Assembly (NCBI GenBank): GCA_030324005.1
Contig: JARDVH010000115.1
Coordinates: 36,716,794 to 36,780,793 of the forward strand
DNA length: 64,000 nt
Direction of reading: 5' to 3'
Origin: Negaprion brevirostris
Lineage: Eukaryota
In this document: positions 36,001-42,000 of the stretch, one piece after another
Numbering within the stretch: position 1 is the stretch's first letter
Layout of the letters: every line of letters begins with the position of its first letter
Program-made: the position numbers

Positions 36001-39000
36001 CATTCCATTCACATATAAACACTGCTTTAAGGATTGCTGAAGGAACAAACAAAAGACATGAATATGAAGAGATCAGAGATTGCCTGAGTATAAAGCGCCA
36101 GGAAAATTGGGAGGTCAGAAACATGGCATCTCAGTTTACTGCTGCAAGTTACATTATTGAGAACAGAAGAATTGTTTTTACACACTGCAGCGCACAATGC
36201 AGGTAAAATGGCAATTATGTCTACTAATTTCAATATTCTTTCTGCCTGTGTATTTTGGGCATTGGAACTGAGCTTTCATCTCTCAGAGAGGAAATTCCTC
36301 ATTAAACAGCTGATTTCCCAGAAGAGTGCCCACTAGAGACACAATGAAGATTACAAGCAGAGCAAGTCTGGGATTAGATTTGGGTGAGAATGATGAGCAT
36401 GAACAGACCGGGATGTCAGAAAGCCAAAGCAGCACTAAAAACATTTGTCCACAGGTACCATTTCAACATCCATCAGATGCACTATACCTGGAACTGCACC
36501 CAATTTTTACTGAAGGACAATACCCAAGAAAACTATGAACAAGCTCTGCCATGTCTTATAGAAGATCTTTAGCTAGCATGCTCAATCTGGNNNNNATGAT
36601 CAAGGTTACCGTGAGGCTCAGTTTCCATTCTTTCCAGGTCATCTATGTGGACAGCTGGAGTGTTGCTGAGTTCAATGATCATTGCTGCACGATGAATGCT
36701 TTGTTCCAAAACCAGTATTTTCATTATGATTGAGCACTACCATTGTGAGGGGCTGCATAATTTTAATGTACTGCTGGCTTTCTACAGCTAAAAGGAATAA
36801 TTGTATTGGAGATATTATTTGGGCCCCAGCTTGTAATACTGTGGTGCTTCCTTCACATTCAGTTGGTCTGAGAGCCCAAGAATTATGCAGTCCAATAATT
36901 AGTTCCTCTGCAGCTCCTACAATGCCTTTATTTTTCACCAAACAACAACTGTGCCGGGCTTATCTGACGAAAAAAGCGCAATAAAACGTGGGACAAGATG
37001 GTCCTCTTCAAAATTGGCTAAAGATATCCTGTCAGATATGAACAGTAGTGGAGCACTGACAATGAAGTCCATGTAACGACCAAAATAAATGTGAAATATG
37101 CCATTTAATATATTAAAGTAGAGCTTCTAGATTCTCAGCTGACCAGTTGCTGCATTACATGATAAGCCCAAAGTCGTCAAGATAATAATGGGTCCTGCAG
37201 ACTCCATAACTTTGCTTTACAAAGGGCCTGCCAATAGAGAAAGAGCAAATTCCAGAAGCTGCAATAGTACAGGACGAAGATAGGTCCTGAAGTAAGGATG
37301 CGGGCTGGAAAATTAATGTAGTGGACACTGGTACAAAATATATATTTACTCAAGTACCATAACTGCCCCTTTTAGGAAGTCTTCTTTACACATACTTAAA
37401 CACACTGGTTCAAAACAGCAGTAATCGCCCTCCATTATGATCAATGCCCAACTATTGTTATGATGTTGGATGATCCAATGACAGACATTCTTGGCAGAAT
37501 GAACAAATCAAGTGCACGAACACAGTTGAGTGACGTGCGAACAATGTAGCAGAACAAACAGCCAAGTTCCTTTGGCATATCCACTCATTTTAAGCAAATC
37601 AAAGTAATGCAGAAAGAATAAATGCAGCTGATGGCTGCAGGGTTTTTGATGGTCCTTGCAGGGATCTGGAATAGTGAAAGGTTCTGCTTGTGCCCTTTGC
37701 TCCTCAAGTCTTTGTAAACAGCTTTGGAATCCATGCTTGGCTTGGCAACATTTAATTCAAGAACATTTTTTTCTTCAAGTAAACAGCTAGCTTCCCTTCC
37801 AATGCTTTCTCAAACACAAAACTGGTTATCAATTAAAGGACACAGCTGAATTAGAAAATTAGTACTGTCCTGTTTTCAGTGGGCTAAAATGTGGATTTTC
37901 TTTCCAAAGTCAAACAACAATCTCATTCTCTCTCTCTCTTTCTCTCTCTTCCCCCCCCTCCCCCATTCAGTGAGCAGAATCAGGTGGCTGGGGGGCTGGA
38001 TGATTATATTCAAATCCATTAAAATGAGATCCTTGCCCTCTGTGGGCACGGACCTCATGACATCACTGGCAAAGGGTGGGAAAAATTAGAAAAGCGACCT
38101 CGGCATTCTCTCTGATGCATACGCTGAAAATTGTCCCCATCACATGTATACCAAACCAGGAGTAAATTCTCCCAGAAAATTTTAGCACCCACAATTGGCT
38201 TGTGACACCAACAGCAATTTCTAGGTTCTCTTGCAAGGTATGTTGATGTCTTCCTGGAGAAGAAGGAATTACTGCTTGGTAAAACATACTTTTCCAGTCA
38301 GAGATGTGAATAAATTTTTACAGGAAGATTTATTCAGAAGGACTGCAATTAATGTATTTATTAATTAATCACAGTACTTTTGGTTCAGATCTTTGCTTAT
38401 CTTTGATGCAATGAGGCAGGGAACACATTGTAATTAAAGGTAAGATTTTGCACAATATAATTGGTAAATAATAGAAGTATAACAAAAAATATTTGAAATG
38501 AGAACAAAAACTTAAATTAATGTGTCACAAGTAACCAGCAGCTTGCCTAATCCTGGGATGATGGCAGATATCAGAAACAAAATATTCTAAGTATACAATA
38601 CAGGTTTAGTACCAGTAAAGGCCAAATTAAAAATTTTGAAAATGTTATAAAAATACAAGTTGTATATTATTCCATTACTTTAATACATGGGTTTTGCCTG
38701 CAGCGTTTGAATTACAAATATCTCCAGAGTCAGATATAATATTCCATTGTGATATCACTCATAGGAACGACTGACCCATTTTCAACTGCTATGCACATGG
38801 AACCCTTCACCACTTTGGCCTTCAAAGTTCTTGTTTGAATATTTGCTACTACCACCACCAAGATCTATACCTCCAACTGGACTTCCATGCTCACCACAGC
38901 AGCCTGTCTCACCAGCCTGTATCGTATACTTCGAATATTTTGTGCCTAATATCTGCCATCATCCCTGGAGTTGGCACACTGTTGGTTACCTGTGACACAT

Positions 39001-42000
39001 TCATTTAAATTTTTGTTGTCATTTCAAATATTTTTATTATACTTCTATTATTTACCAATTATATTTCATAAAATCTTGTGTTTAGTTACAATGTGTCCTC
39101 TGCCTCATTGCATTAGAGATATTCCAGCTGACTATTATGCTTGGTAGTCAGCTAGGATTCAATAAAGTTTACAAAGCAATGCCATCATTCTCTACATTTT
39201 CTAATCTTTGCCGTTTCAGAAATTTCAATCTACTGCAAAACAATGAATTAATAATTTATCACAAGTGCATCTGGATTAGTCACAAAATAAGCAACGAACA
39301 TGGCATTTTCATAACTGCAGATCACAAGAACAGCTAAATAATTCTTTTCACCAAGGAGGTGGTAATTTTCAATCCACATGATGCATAAATATCAAATGCC
39401 AAAATTTTGCTTTTTTATTTCCCTGGAAAGTTTTGAATATCAGTATATTGCTAGGGTAAAATTGCTACGCTACGCTGGACCAAGATTAAAAACAAACTCC
39501 AGTAGCTGATGATAAGTTGGTTATTAAGACAAGTTATACATACATCTCAGAGAAAAATCTCTAGATATCTCAGAAAAATTCGGACTAACTTTGCTTTCTC
39601 TTTTAAAAAAAAGAAAGTACCTATGTTTATGTTGCATCTCTTAGCAACCCAAGGACAGCAGCTTGCACTTACAGAATGCTAATATGTTCCACGCTTCAGA
39701 GAACCATGCTGAGAAATAAATTCACATGAAAGCAAAGAAAGCAAAATTAGGATGGGTGACCAAAAGATTGGTTAAAGATACAACTTTTTAGAAGGGTTGT
39801 GAAAGGAGAAGAGATTTATAGAGAACATACTGCTTAGAACCTTGGCACAGGAATTTGGGGGTGTTCAAAACTCGAACAAGTAGTCTGCAATGTTCTTAAG
39901 GAATTCAGGAAGTTACAGAATAAATTTGGGGTCATCAAAGGATTTCATCATGAGATCATGAATATTAAACTGGAGGCCTTTGAAGACTGTGAGCCAGTGT
40001 AGGTCAGCAAGAAAAGGGTGATGGATGAGCAGGACTTCTTGTACTATGATATGGGCAGGACAATTTTGTATAGTCTAAGTGGAGGTTGGCCAGAACAGCA
40101 TTGGAATAAATTGAGCAGAGGCACAGATGGAGGTTTCAGCAGCAAATAAGCTGAGACTGGAGCGAGAAAAGATAGTTAAAGTAAGCATTCCATGTGATTA
40201 TGAGGACACAGGTTCAGAAGTTCAGCCCTGGACCATACAGGATGTTGAGGTTGTGAGCAGTCCTTTTTAAACAGAGTCGGGTGCCTGGCGGGGAATGGAA
40301 TCTAACAGAGGGGATGTGGCAGGAGCCAAAGAACAATGGCTTCTATTTTTCCAATATTTAACTGGAGGAAACTACAGCTCATCTAGGACTCTTGTTAGAT
40401 ATGCAGTCTGGAGCGGTTCAGTCAGAATTAACACAAAAAATTGCAAGAGAAATGCGAGCTAACAAACAACACAGAAAAGTAAAACTAGAAGAGATATCGT
40501 AAAGAAACAAAAAGGTGTATCAAGCATAAGAAAGTAAAGATGAGGAAGAAATTCAAGCAAAAATAAACAAGGAAAAAAAAGAAAACAGAAAAATAAAACT
40601 GAGGAATAAATGCAAAGCATTATGGTTGAGAGTTATGTTTAACATTATTTGGAGAAGATATGTAGTTGGAAACTGTAATTCCGGGTAGGAAAAGGCATCA
40701 GCCTCCCCAAAAGTCCATTCTGCATTTTGAACTGTGTGAAGAGCCTTTTGACATAATTGAGAAATGTATTTTCTGCTATTTTGCATTCCTTATCTCATAT
40801 TGCAGATTTACCTTTTCCATTGCTTTTCTGGTCTTTTGTGTCTCAAAGCAGATCTGATATTTACCTCCTTTCAGGACTAAATGCTTCAAGTTTCTCAGAT
40901 GCTCTGGATTACTTTGCAACACGAGAAGCTTAAGCTTTTCCTGGAGAATTGGTCAAAGGTATAATGTGACCAAAGCATAGACAACTTCCTCATACCTGTA
41001 CTTTACTGCTTCGTCGACATGGTTCAGCGTTCTGCATGTTTTGTTAGCTGCGCTGATTGGACATGTTGGACACAGAATCGATTAATCTTTTAGAATTGGA
41101 TCACTCATGGAATGTGCAAAACACTTACTTTGCCTATCTGTATGCAAGACTTCCATTTAATTTCATTGGCCACTGTTCCATCCACTTATATTTTATTCAT
41201 CACTAAGTATTTGGCAGTTATCTTATACATCTTCCCATTTTTCATGTGGTGATCATGTCTTTCCTCAGACTTACCTGCTTCTCAGTGCCTGATGGTCTAC
41301 AAATGTGACCAGTTGCATTGAGTTTCTGAATCCAAGCCATTATTGTAAATAGGAAATTGTTCTATAATCTATTGGCATGAATTGTGTTTGAATAGTAAAG
41401 ACTTGTTGCCTGAATTCCCCCTGACCTCACATATCATCGAAGGATGTGAGGTGACCTGACAGAAGGGTATAAGATGTTGAGAGGTACAGACTGGGTGGAT
41501 TCTCAGAGGCTTTTTCCCAGGGCTGGAATGGTTGCTTCGAAAGGACACAGGTTTAAGGTGCCGGGGAGTAGGTACAGAGGAGATATCAGGGGTTAAGTTT
41601 TTCACTCAGAGCGTAGTGGGCGAGTGGAATCGGCTGCTGTCGGTGGCGGTGGAGGCAAATTCGATAAGGTCTTTTAAGAGATTTCTGGATGAGTACATGG
41701 GACTTACTAGAATTGAGGGTTATAGGTAAACCAAGTAGGTAGGGATATCATTGGTGCAAGTTGTGTGCCGAAGGGCCTGTTTGTGCTGTAGTTTTTCTAT
41801 GTTCTATCAATATAGGAATTAGATGTTCCTTTTCCAAATTGAAGAGATTTAACAAAATAAAATTTGTGCTTCTGGTAATCTGACCACAGCAATACAGCAG
41901 ATATAAAAGCAAAATACTGTAGATGTTGCAAATCTGAAATAAAAACAGAAAATGCCAGATAAACTCAGCAAGTCTGGCAGCATCTGTGGAGGGAGAAACA

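What the first reader, a model, noticed from the sequence alone, without database searches (positions are those of the whole stretch)
38398..39121. 28S rRNA fragment captured between the arms of a ~207-bp inverted duplication
Seen: left arm 38398-38604, unique spacer, 28S-derived segment ~38755-38905, then right arm 38916-39121. The rRNA piece ends about 10 bp before the right arm. The arms are AT-rich, clearly diverged from each other (so old, not a library chimera), and do not resemble the other repeats in this window. The rRNA piece is sense with respect to the DDHD1 pre-mRNA. Inference: either a single break-repair or template-switch event produced the inverted duplication with reverse-transcribed rRNA as filler, or this is a fold-back element with long TIRs carrying rRNA cargo. 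In the pre-mRNA it would form a ~200-bp dsRNA stem with an rRNA segment in the loop.
Basis: partly seen in the sequence, partly recalled or inferred. Interest (0 to 1): 0.65.

Follow-up and report, generated by a model that had tools for sequence, protein, structure and literature searches.

The report
rRNA scrap beside an inverted duplication
In an intron of a shark phospholipase gene, an old decayed piece of large-subunit ribosomal RNA sits next to a backwards copy of nearby intron sequence, most likely a scar from one messy repair or retrotransposition event and not a working element.

Summary
Arms 38398-38604 and 38916-39121 are an inverted repeat: 178 of 206 aligned bases identical, one gap. 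A eukaryotic LSU rRNA fragment lies between them on the minus strand (Rfam RF02543, 77.8 bits, E 6e-19; firm core about 38760-38871). The locus is in a roughly 14.8-kb intron of DDHD1b, which runs on the minus strand, so the rRNA piece is sense to the pre-mRNA.

Three new features point to a single insertion event:
- The 8-mer ATATTCCA brackets only the rRNA piece plus the right arm (38739-38746 and 39119-39126), leaving the left arm outside.
- The rRNA/arm junction carries a stuttered partial duplication that ends in a 5-nt microhomology with the arm.
- The flanks outside both arms share no target-site duplication.

Best reading, about 0.5: one composite insertion at a staggered break. It comprises 28S cDNA plus an inverted copy of sequence 142-349 bp upstream, made by twin priming or snap-back template switching.

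Rivals are two copies of a dispersed repeat (0.2) and a long-TIR transposon carrying rRNA cargo (0.12). The genome-wide copy number of the arms and the orthologous introns would decide. Neither could be checked, because no eukaryote DNA collection was available. This is an ordinary kind of scar, of modest interest.

The parts
38398..38604 (+). Left arm (207 nt, 30% G+C). In the favoured model this is native intron sequence that served as the template for the right arm.
   Evidence: 178 of 206 aligned bases identical to the reverse complement of 38916-39121. It lies outside the candidate target-site duplication. No Rfam match.
38605..38738 (.). AT-rich unique spacer, taken to be native intron sequence between the template arm and the insertion site.
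   Evidence: No other copy in the window and no Rfam match. The stretch 38605-38756 has 27.6% G+C.
38739..38746 (+). Candidate target-site duplication, copy 1 (ATATTCCA).
   Evidence: the only junction pair of 10 tried with a shared word of 8 or more; null 0.013 for 30-nt windows; tight-position null 87 of 53,747.
38747..38759 (.). 13 unassigned bases at the 3' edge of the rRNA piece (low-posterior alignment only).
   Evidence: posterior about 0.5 or less. One search gives no LSU hit for 38720-38775 alone.
38760..38871 (-). Firm core of the 28S/LSU rRNA-derived fragment, sense on the minus strand. It is decayed: by my hand count, 17 of 108 aligned columns differ from the Rfam consensus, and there is a 3-nt insertion.
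   Evidence: RF02543, 77.8 bits, E 6.1e-19, model about 1441-1549 of 3401. Only 1 CpG remains in 38757-38910.
38872..38915 (-). Probable 5' continuation of the rRNA fragment, running into the junction. It holds a partial tandem duplication: CTCACCA at 38890 and 38908, and CAGCCTGT at 38900 and 38913. The last 5 nt of the second CAGCCTGT copy are also the first 5 nt of the right arm.
   Evidence: posterior >=0.6 to about 38895, 0.3-0.5 beyond. One search gives no independent LSU hit; such a double colinear repeat occurs in 6 of 12,264 control windows.
38916..39121 (+). Right arm (206 nt), an inverted copy of the left arm. In the favoured model it was synthesised during the insertion event.
   Evidence: No Rfam match in 38900-39330.
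39119..39126 (+). Candidate target-site duplication, copy 2 (ATATTCCA). Its first 3 nt overlap the tip of the right arm (microhomology).
   Evidence: and direct reading.
39126..39153 (.). Perfect 9-bp stem with a 10-nt loop, starting on the last base of duplication copy 2. It may be a structure-prone site at the original break.
   Evidence: 13 such hairpins in 61,882 bases, so one within +/-10 nt of a given site is expected about 0.4% of the time (post hoc).
33231..48357 (-). Host context: the DDHD1b intron, bounded by exons 48357-48202 and 33347-33231, that contains the whole structure.
   Evidence: Pfam DDHD in two minus-strand ORFs. (best hit Mustelus asterias DDHD1b, 96% identity). (tblastn HSPs exon by exon, all on the minus strand).

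Best explanation
This is one composite insertion of about 372 bp (38747-39118) at a staggered break in a DDHD1b intron, made tens of millions of years ago or more. It now decays neutrally.

Inferred steps:
1. A break with an 8-nt stagger formed at ATATTCCA, at the foot of a small hairpin-prone palindrome.
2. The plus-strand 3' end on the left of the break primed reverse transcription on an internal stretch of 28S rRNA. This laid down about 110-165 nt of antisense cDNA.
3. Synthesis then moved, through a 5-nt microhomology (CCTGT/ACAGG) and with a stutter, onto sequence 142-349 bp upstream of the break (the left arm). That produced an inverted copy, the right arm. This could have happened in two ways. 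The nascent strand could have snapped back onto its own resected strand. Alternatively, the opposite break end could have been twin-primed on the local DDHD1b intron RNA, which has the required polarity.
4. The product was joined to the other break end through a 3-nt microhomology (ATA), leaving the 8-bp duplication.

The enzyme could be a LINE endonuclease/reverse transcriptase acting in trans, or a repair polymerase. That is not resolved.

What is shown: the arms, the rRNA identity and its strand, the intron context, the repeated 8-mer, the junction duplication and the predicted RNA stem. What is inferred: the order of events, the templates and the enzymes.

Consequence: the pre-mRNA can fold into an imperfect stem of about 206 bp with a 311-nt loop that contains sense rRNA-like sequence. 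Nothing indicates that this is used.
For: 1. The 8-mer ATATTCCA lies at 38739-38746 and 39119-39126, enclosing the rRNA piece plus the right arm and excluding the left arm. Of 10 junction pairs compared, it is the only one with a shared word above 6 nt. The null is P = 0.013 for 30-nt windows and 87 of 53,747 for tightly placed copies.
2. The flanks outside both arms share at most 4 nt exactly and 5 of 8 with mismatches. A true 8-bp duplication of the arms' age should keep about 7 of 8.
3. The rRNA/arm junction holds a partial tandem duplication whose end doubles as the first 5 nt of the arm (6 of 12,264 control windows). This is what a template switch with slippage leaves behind.
4. The arm tip overlaps duplication copy 2 by 3 nt.
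5. The arms, spacer and rRNA piece are single-copy in the 64-kb window. The arms' 30-32% G+C matches the spacer and right flank (28-33%), as expected for local intron DNA.
6. The ages agree. The arms differ by K2P 0.151, or about 0.076 per arm. The rRNA core differs from the Rfam consensus at 17 of 108 columns, 7 of them highly conserved (hand count), and has 1 CpG left.
7. Precedent. [quoted passage not shown] Passages read in PMC11702581: L1 insertions built from two RNAs in opposite orientation, and local inverted duplications at target sites arising from processing of ORF2p breaks.
Against: - The 8-mer test is post hoc. After allowing for the 10 junction pairs tried, the loose P is about 0.13. 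Only the tightly placed version stays small.
- Thirteen bases between duplication copy 1 and the firm rRNA core are unassigned.
- The rRNA origin of the last roughly 20-44 nt before the right arm rests on a low-posterior alignment. The 62-nt stretch alone gave no LSU hit.
- There is no poly-A or other 3' tail and no L1-type cleavage motif at the site. No LINE sequence is recognisable nearby. No reverse-transcriptase domain appears in the 150 longest of 668 ORFs.
- Templated inverted copies at repair junctions are usually much shorter than 207 nt.
- The key prediction, that the left arm is single-copy native DNA, could not be tested, because no eukaryote genome collection was available.
Confidence: 0.5

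Rival explanations
1. The arms are two independent copies of one dispersed retroelement, such as a LINE or SINE 3' tail that ends at the arms' outer tips. The left copy is older or longer and runs into the spacer. The right copy is a 207-nt 5'-truncated copy that entered as a chimera with antisense 28S cDNA by twin priming. By chance it landed 142 bp from the left copy, in the opposite orientation.
For: - The same 8-bp duplication and junction microhomology fit a chimeric retrotransposition equally well.
- 28S/LINE chimeras are documented.
- Shared outer ends are natural if they are the element's 3' terminus.
- 86% identity is typical of two old copies of one family.
- The window is rich in retroposons: a tRNA-derived SINE family is present in 6 or more copies.
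Against: - No third copy exists in 64 kb. The family would therefore be sparse, and two copies within 311 bp would be a coincidence of roughly 0.3-5% by my own estimate.
- There is no tail repeat or A-run at either putative 3' end.
- There is no significant duplication for the left copy. The best candidate, ATCTTTGC at 38389 and 39204, has a null of 614 of 7,854.
- In L1 chimeras, 83% of 28S segments are sense to the LINE. Here the piece would be antisense.
Confidence: 0.2
2. The structure is a non-autonomous DNA transposon or fold-back element spanning 38398-39121. It has 207-bp terminal inverted repeats and an internal region that captured a 28S fragment, analogous to cargo-carrying MITEs or Pack-MULEs.
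For: - The structure has long, co-terminal inverted arms with sharp outer ends.
- TA is present at both tips, so a TA duplication of the Tc1/mariner type cannot be excluded.
- rDNA-derived segments inside DNA transposons are known, for example Pokey with IGS repeats (passages of PMC10946416).
Against: - No duplication of 3 bp or more flanks the arms (longest shared word 4; best 5 of 8).
- The repeated 8-mer that excludes the left arm would have to be chance.
- The arms have no internal direct repeats of the IR/DR kind.
- No other copy exists in the window.
- No transposase remnant is present. The two ORFs across the region have no Pfam family.
- The cargo abuts one arm with a stutter or microhomology junction.
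Confidence: 0.12
3. Two unrelated events occurred: a local inverted duplication (fold-back repair) and, separately, insertion of an rRNA pseudogene fragment that happens to lie next to the right arm.
For: - Dispersed rRNA fragments and small inverted duplications each occur on their own (passages of PMC5381670; listing and abstract start of PMC10622511 and PMC3907307).
- The firm rRNA core stops 44 nt short of the arm.
Against: - The candidate duplication brackets both parts together.
- The junction duplication ties rRNA-side sequence to the first 5 nt of the arm.
- The degrees of decay are similar.
Confidence: 0.1

Closest known systems
Complex or chimeric LINE-mediated insertions: 28S rRNA/LINE-1 chimeras, twin-primed two-RNA insertions, and target-site inverted duplications
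   Same: Shared features are an internal 28S fragment of typical size (reported range 50-482 nt), two inserted parts in opposite orientation, a short flanking duplication, and microhomology at the internal junction. Local inverted duplication at the target is described as an outcome of processing endonuclease-made breaks.
   Different: - There is no LINE sequence, poly-A tail or TTTT/A-type site.
- The second part is a copy of nearby host DNA, not a second cellular RNA or a LINE.
- The host is a shark, whose LINE families differ from L1.
- The event is a fixed germline one, not an experimental or tumour clone.
Templated sequence insertions at double-strand breaks (TSIP classes 1 and 2) and synthesis-dependent microhomology-mediated end joining with snap-back synthesis
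   Same: A reverse-transcribed RNA patch fills a break. The junctions show microhomology and stutter, and nearby sequence is copied in inverted orientation (passages of PMC5110952; listings and abstract starts of PMC2943611 and PMC5728401).
   Different: - Class 2 events have no target-site duplication, whereas one seems present here.
- Class 1 events have poly-A and an L1 site, which are absent here.
- Snap-back copies are usually a few to tens of nt (my recollection), not 207.
SINE28 (28S-derived SINE of mammals)
   Same: It is a 28S-derived sequence dispersed outside the rDNA.
   Different: SINE28 derives from the 3' end of 28S, carries an A-rich tail and is multi-copy (abstract and passages of PMC4994717). 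The piece here is internal (model about 1441-1549 of 3401), has no tail, and is unique in the window.
Long-TIR non-autonomous DNA transposons and fold-back elements with captured host sequence
   Same: The layout is two long inverted arms around a short internal region that holds a host-derived fragment.
   Different: There is no flanking duplication of 3 bp or more, no sign of multiple copies, and no recognisable terminal motifs or binding-site repeats. A candidate duplication leaves one arm outside.

Membership tests
Dispersed LSU (28S) rRNA-derived pseudogene fragment | Significant similarity to the eukaryotic LSU rRNA model | tested here: met
   RF02543, 77.8 bits (gathering score 50), E 6.1e-19, minus strand.
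Dispersed LSU (28S) rRNA-derived pseudogene fragment | Partial, decayed, and located outside an rDNA unit | tested here: met
   About 110-165 nt of a 3401-position model. By hand count, 17 of 108 columns differ and there is a 3-nt insertion. It lies inside a DDHD1b intron. There is no other rRNA hit in the window at gathering score.
LINE-mediated (target-primed) chimeric or complex insertion | Target-site duplication flanking the whole insert | tested here: met
   ATATTCCA at 38739-38746 and 39119-39126. Nulls are 0.013 and 87 of 53,747. The test is post hoc, so treat this as a candidate.
LINE-mediated (target-primed) chimeric or complex insertion | 3' tail (poly-A or LINE-specific tail repeat) and an endonuclease target motif | tested here: not met
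   There is no A-run or tail repeat at either end of the insert, and the site is not TTTT/A-like. The preferences of shark LINE endonucleases could not be tested.
LINE-mediated (target-primed) chimeric or complex insertion | LINE or SINE sequence as one partner of the chimera | not testable with these tools
   No transposable-element library or shark genome was available. The arms match nothing else in the window and no Rfam family.
LINE-mediated (target-primed) chimeric or complex insertion | Parts in opposite orientation joined with microhomology (twin-priming signature) | tested here: met
   The rRNA cDNA is antisense on the plus strand, and the arm copy has the opposite polarity to its source. 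The junction has a 5-nt microhomology plus a stutter.
TIR DNA transposon, MITE or fold-back element | Terminal inverted repeats | tested here: met
TIR DNA transposon, MITE or fold-back element | Target-site duplication directly outside both TIRs | tested here: not met
   The longest shared word is 4 nt, and the best match is 5 of 8. A 2-bp TA duplication cannot be excluded.
TIR DNA transposon, MITE or fold-back element | Multiple dispersed copies with the same ends | not testable with these tools
   There are 0 further copies in the 64-kb window. No genome-wide search was possible.
SINE28 | [quoted passage not shown] | tested here: not met
   The piece is internal (model about 1441-1549 of 3401) and has no tail. 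The definition is taken from PMC4994717.
Class 2 templated sequence insertion (break repair patch) | No target-site duplication; microhomology or untemplated bases at the junctions | tested here: inconclusive
   Microhomologies are present (the ATA overlap), but a candidate 8-bp duplication is also present. The definition is taken from PMC5110952.

The most novel reading that the evidence does not exclude
The right arm may be a cDNA of the gene's own nascent intron RNA. At a germline break, one end would have been extended on 28S rRNA and the other on the local DDHD1b pre-mRNA, which has exactly the polarity needed. The two cDNAs would then have been joined by microhomology. That would make this a fixed, natural example of a transcript-templated repair scar that built a roughly 206-bp intronic dsRNA hairpin out of the host gene's own transcript, in a vertebrate lineage far from mammals.
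Probability: 0.15. Interest if true: 0.6.

Novelty: new member of a known kind. Interest (0 to 1): 0.3.

Why it matters
If the single-event reading is right, this is a clean fossil of an error-prone insertion pathway. That pathway (reverse-transcribed rRNA plus a locally templated inverted copy, with a duplication and microhomologies) has so far been documented mainly in human cell and tumour experiments. Here it would be fixed in a shark germline, suggesting that the same chemistry operates across jawed vertebrates.

It is also a practical warning for annotation:
- Rfam's filters missed the rRNA fragment in a 2.5-kb scan and in the whole-window scan, and found it only in a 231-nt scan.
- A palindromic locus that looks like a transposon may in fact be a repair scar.

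Nothing found here suggests an effect on DDHD1b beyond a possible long dsRNA in the intron.

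Tried and rejected
- Rfam on 37500-40000 found nothing relevant, and on the whole window at gathering score nothing at all. The rRNA hit appears only when a short stretch is given.
- Rfam on the left arm plus spacer and on the right arm plus right flank gave no family. The arms are therefore not tRNA-, 5S- or 7SL-derived SINE heads, and the right flank is not a continuation of the rRNA.
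- Rfam on the two edges alone gave no LSU hit, so the exact limits of the rRNA piece stay open.
- Sensitive blastn of every part against the window found no further copies.
- I checked whether the spacer is the inverted partner of the rRNA piece, which would make the whole thing one long palindrome. It is not. Similarity stops at the arm ends, and the through-centre alignment is carried by the arms.
- A test for Tc1-like IR/DR repeats inside the arms found only chance 7-8-mers.
- A nested-element duplication (ATCTTTGC at 38389 and 39204) has a null of 7.8% and was dropped.
- Pfam on the 150 longest of 668 stop-to-stop ORFs found no transposase or reverse transcriptase. The two ORFs that cross the locus have no family.
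- One literature look-up failed on a term-syntax error and was repeated with other terms.
The supplementary tables of the 28S/LINE-1 chimera preprint, which may list the 28S coordinates used, were closed.

Full report
**What is there**

The stretch 38398-39121 is a real, old inverted repeat.
- The repeat finder reports it as two collinear pairs split by one indel: 120 nt at 88% and 91 nt at 86%.
- blastn gives 85.99% identity over 207 columns, E 1e-57.
- A global alignment gives 178 matches, 17 transitions, 11 transversions and one gap column, with a Kimura distance of 0.151. Similarity ends abruptly at both outer and both inner ends.
- Neither arm, nor the spacer, nor the rRNA piece has another copy in the 64-kb window. 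The best other hits have E 0.009-0.48.
- The arms are unrelated to the tRNA-derived SINE family that is scattered through the window.
- The 14% divergence rules out an assembly fold-back artefact.

**The rRNA call**

A scan of 2.5 kb around the locus reported no rRNA, and a whole-window scan at gathering score reported nothing at all. When only 231 nt were given, Rfam's eukaryotic LSU model matched the minus strand at 77.8 bits (gathering score 50), E 6.1e-19.

How far the fragment extends:
- The firmly aligned part is window about 38760-38871, matching model positions about 1441-1549 of 3401. This is an internal, highly conserved stretch of the large-subunit rRNA.
- Towards the right arm, the alignment continues with posterior >=0.6 to about 38895 and with 0.3-0.5 beyond.
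- The two edges on their own give no LSU hit.
- From my recollection of vertebrate 28S, which is not a tool result, the similarity does run to within a few bases of the arm. That remains to be checked against the species' own 28S.

The fragment is decayed. By my hand count on the alignment, 17 of 108 core columns differ from the pan-eukaryote consensus, 7 of them at positions the model prints as highly conserved, and there is a 3-nt insertion. Only one CpG is left in 38757-38910. The arms, the spacer and the right flank match no RNA family.

**Context**

- Pfam finds DDHD-domain pieces in two minus-strand ORFs among the 150 longest of 668 stop-to-stop ORFs.
- One exon ORF, searched on its own, finds shark DDHD1b proteins. 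The best is Mustelus asterias, 96% identity over the exon; 1,483 of 1,582 candidates had E <= 1e-5.
- tblastn of three named shark DDHD1b proteins against the window gives 11-12 separate exon matches, all on the minus strand. Two of them, 48357-48202 and 33347-33231, bracket the finding.
- The exons were only ever handled one by one. The step of joining them into a spliced model was left out.
- The window is therefore shark, not human.

**New anatomy**

Comparing 30-nt windows around all five junctions in 10 pairings gave the following results.
- One pairing stands out. ATATTCCA occurs at 38739-38746, just left of the rRNA piece, and again at 39119-39126, straddling the outer tip of the right arm. 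All other pairings share 6 nt or fewer, and the pair outside both arms shares only 4.
- For windows the same distance apart elsewhere in the sequence, a shared 8-mer occurs in 1.3% of cases.
- If the two copies must sit as close to the junctions as they do here, it occurs in 87 of 53,747 positions. This test was designed after seeing the motif. With the 10 pairings allowed for, the loose P is only about 0.13, so I treat it as a good candidate and not as proof.
- The motif's first three bases overlap the arm tip.
- The rRNA/arm junction carries a partial tandem duplication. CTCACCA occurs at 38890 and 38908, and CAGCCTGT at 38900 and 38913. The last five bases of the second CAGCCTGT copy are the first five of the right arm, that is, the ACAGG that ends the left arm.
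- Such a double collinear repeat occurs in 6 of 12,264 control windows.
- A perfect 9-bp stem with a 10-nt loop starts on the last base of the second ATATTCCA. There are 13 such hairpins in 61,882 bases.

**Mechanism**

These features fit one insertion event whose product is 38747-39118, with the left arm and spacer as pre-existing intron.
- A staggered break at ATATTCCA gave a plus-strand 3' end that primed reverse transcription on 28S rRNA, which is why the plus strand carries the antisense.
- Synthesis then moved through the 5-nt microhomology, with a stutter, onto sequence 142-349 bp upstream and copied it backwards.
- The end was joined to the other side of the break through the 3-nt overlap.
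- The backwards copy can arise in two ways. The nascent strand can snap back on its own resected strand. Alternatively, the other break end can be extended on the local DDHD1b intron RNA, which has the right polarity (twin priming).

I cannot tell these two apart, nor can I say whether a LINE enzyme or a repair polymerase did the work.

Precedents from the passages I read:
- L1 insertions built from two RNAs in opposite orientation, and local inverted duplications at target sites, attributed to processing of endonuclease-made breaks (PMC11702581).
- Two classes of templated insertions: LINE-like with duplications, and repair-like with microhomology (PMC5110952).
- For snap-back synthesis and fold-back priming, I saw only search listings and abstract starts.

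**Against this reading**

- There is no tail, no L1-type site and no recognisable LINE piece.
- Thirteen bases next to the first ATATTCCA are unassigned.
- The rRNA origin of the junction-proximal bases is weakly supported.
- A 207-nt locally templated inverted copy is long for a repair junction.

**Rivals**

*(a) Two copies of a sparse dispersed retroelement tail, the right one chimeric with rRNA.* This explains the duplication and the junction equally well. It needs two copies to lie 311 bp apart with none elsewhere in 64 kb. Neither copy has a tail, and there is no significant duplication for the left copy (null 614 of 7,854).

*(b) A long-TIR transposon with rRNA cargo.* The arm structure fits, and a TA duplication cannot be excluded. 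However:
- nothing of 3 bp or more is duplicated outside the arms (best 5 of 8);
- the arms have no internal binding-site-like repeats;
- no transposase remnant is present;
- the 8-mer that leaves one arm outside would have to be chance.

*(c) Two unrelated events.* This is disfavoured by the shared bracket and by the junction.

My estimates are 0.5 for the single composite insertion with a local template, 0.2 for (a), 0.12 for (b) and 0.1 for (c). The remainder is unassigned.

**Consequence**

On the minus strand, the RNA of 38380-39140 folds at -321.7 kcal/mol against -170.7 +/- 8.9 for shuffles, z -17. The stem has 178 Watson-Crick and 9 G-U pairs, 19 mismatches and one bulge. Its longest unbroken helix is 29 bp. 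It could in principle be an editing or dicing substrate. The 28 differences between the arms include 19 that break pairing, so nothing suggests the stem is maintained.

**Comparison and novelty**

- It is a dispersed LSU-rRNA pseudogene fragment. That membership test is met.
- It is not SINE28, which comes from the 3' end of 28S and has an A-rich tail (PMC4994717).
- It works most like the complex, twin-primed or template-switched LINE-associated insertions and templated break-repair patches described in human systems. It lacks their tail and site hallmarks, and its second component is local host sequence.
- I rate it a new member of a known kind, of modest interest.

**What stayed unchecked**

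- The genome-wide copy number of the arms, the orthologous introns, a species-matched 28S sequence, a repeat library and expression data.
- Supplementary tables of the cited papers were also closed. Those of the 28S/LINE-1 preprint may list which 28S segments recur.

Noticed in passing
window 37500-40000 versus 38700-38930: Rfam's speed filters hid a 77.8-bit LSU rRNA fragment in a 2.5-kb scan and in the whole-window gathering scan. It appeared only when 231 nt were given. Other decayed RNA-derived fragments in this window may be missed in the same way.
   Followed up: partly
window 39126-39153: A perfect 9-bp stem with a 10-nt loop starts on the last base of the second ATATTCCA copy. There are 13 such hairpins in 61,882 bases. 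It may mark a structure-prone break site.
   Followed up: partly
window 3592-3864 (-): An ORF inside the DDHD1b intron between exons 5590-5420 and 1977-1774 matches the Pfam Calx-beta domain (E 1.4e-07, 31.9 bits, cut-off 27). It may be a pseudogene fragment, a nested or overlapping exon, or chance.
   Followed up: no
window 13444-13770, 20174-20500, 30191-30272, 31395-31700, 47463-47800, 54775-55060, 61270-61630; inverted copies near 6649-6717, 60993-61126, 62938-63075: Many diverged copies (60-90% identity) of one tRNA-derived SINE-like family lie in both orientations across the DDHD1b introns, including close inverted pairs at 60993-61126/61318-61451.
   Followed up: no
window 53485-53604: A tight hairpin-like inverted repeat: 54-nt arms, 83% complementary, only 12 nt apart.
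   Followed up: no
window 23881-24032 and 24559-24710: A local direct duplication of 152 nt at 86% identity, 678 bp apart, close to exon 23137-22874.
   Followed up: no
window 52700-52593 (-): This exon matches the Scyliorhinus and Hemiscyllium DDHD1b isoforms but is absent from the Mustelus isoform X2 used. It is probably an alternatively spliced 36-codon exon.
   Followed up: no
window 38307 region: Another perfect 9-bp-stem hairpin lies 91 nt left of the left arm.
   Followed up: no
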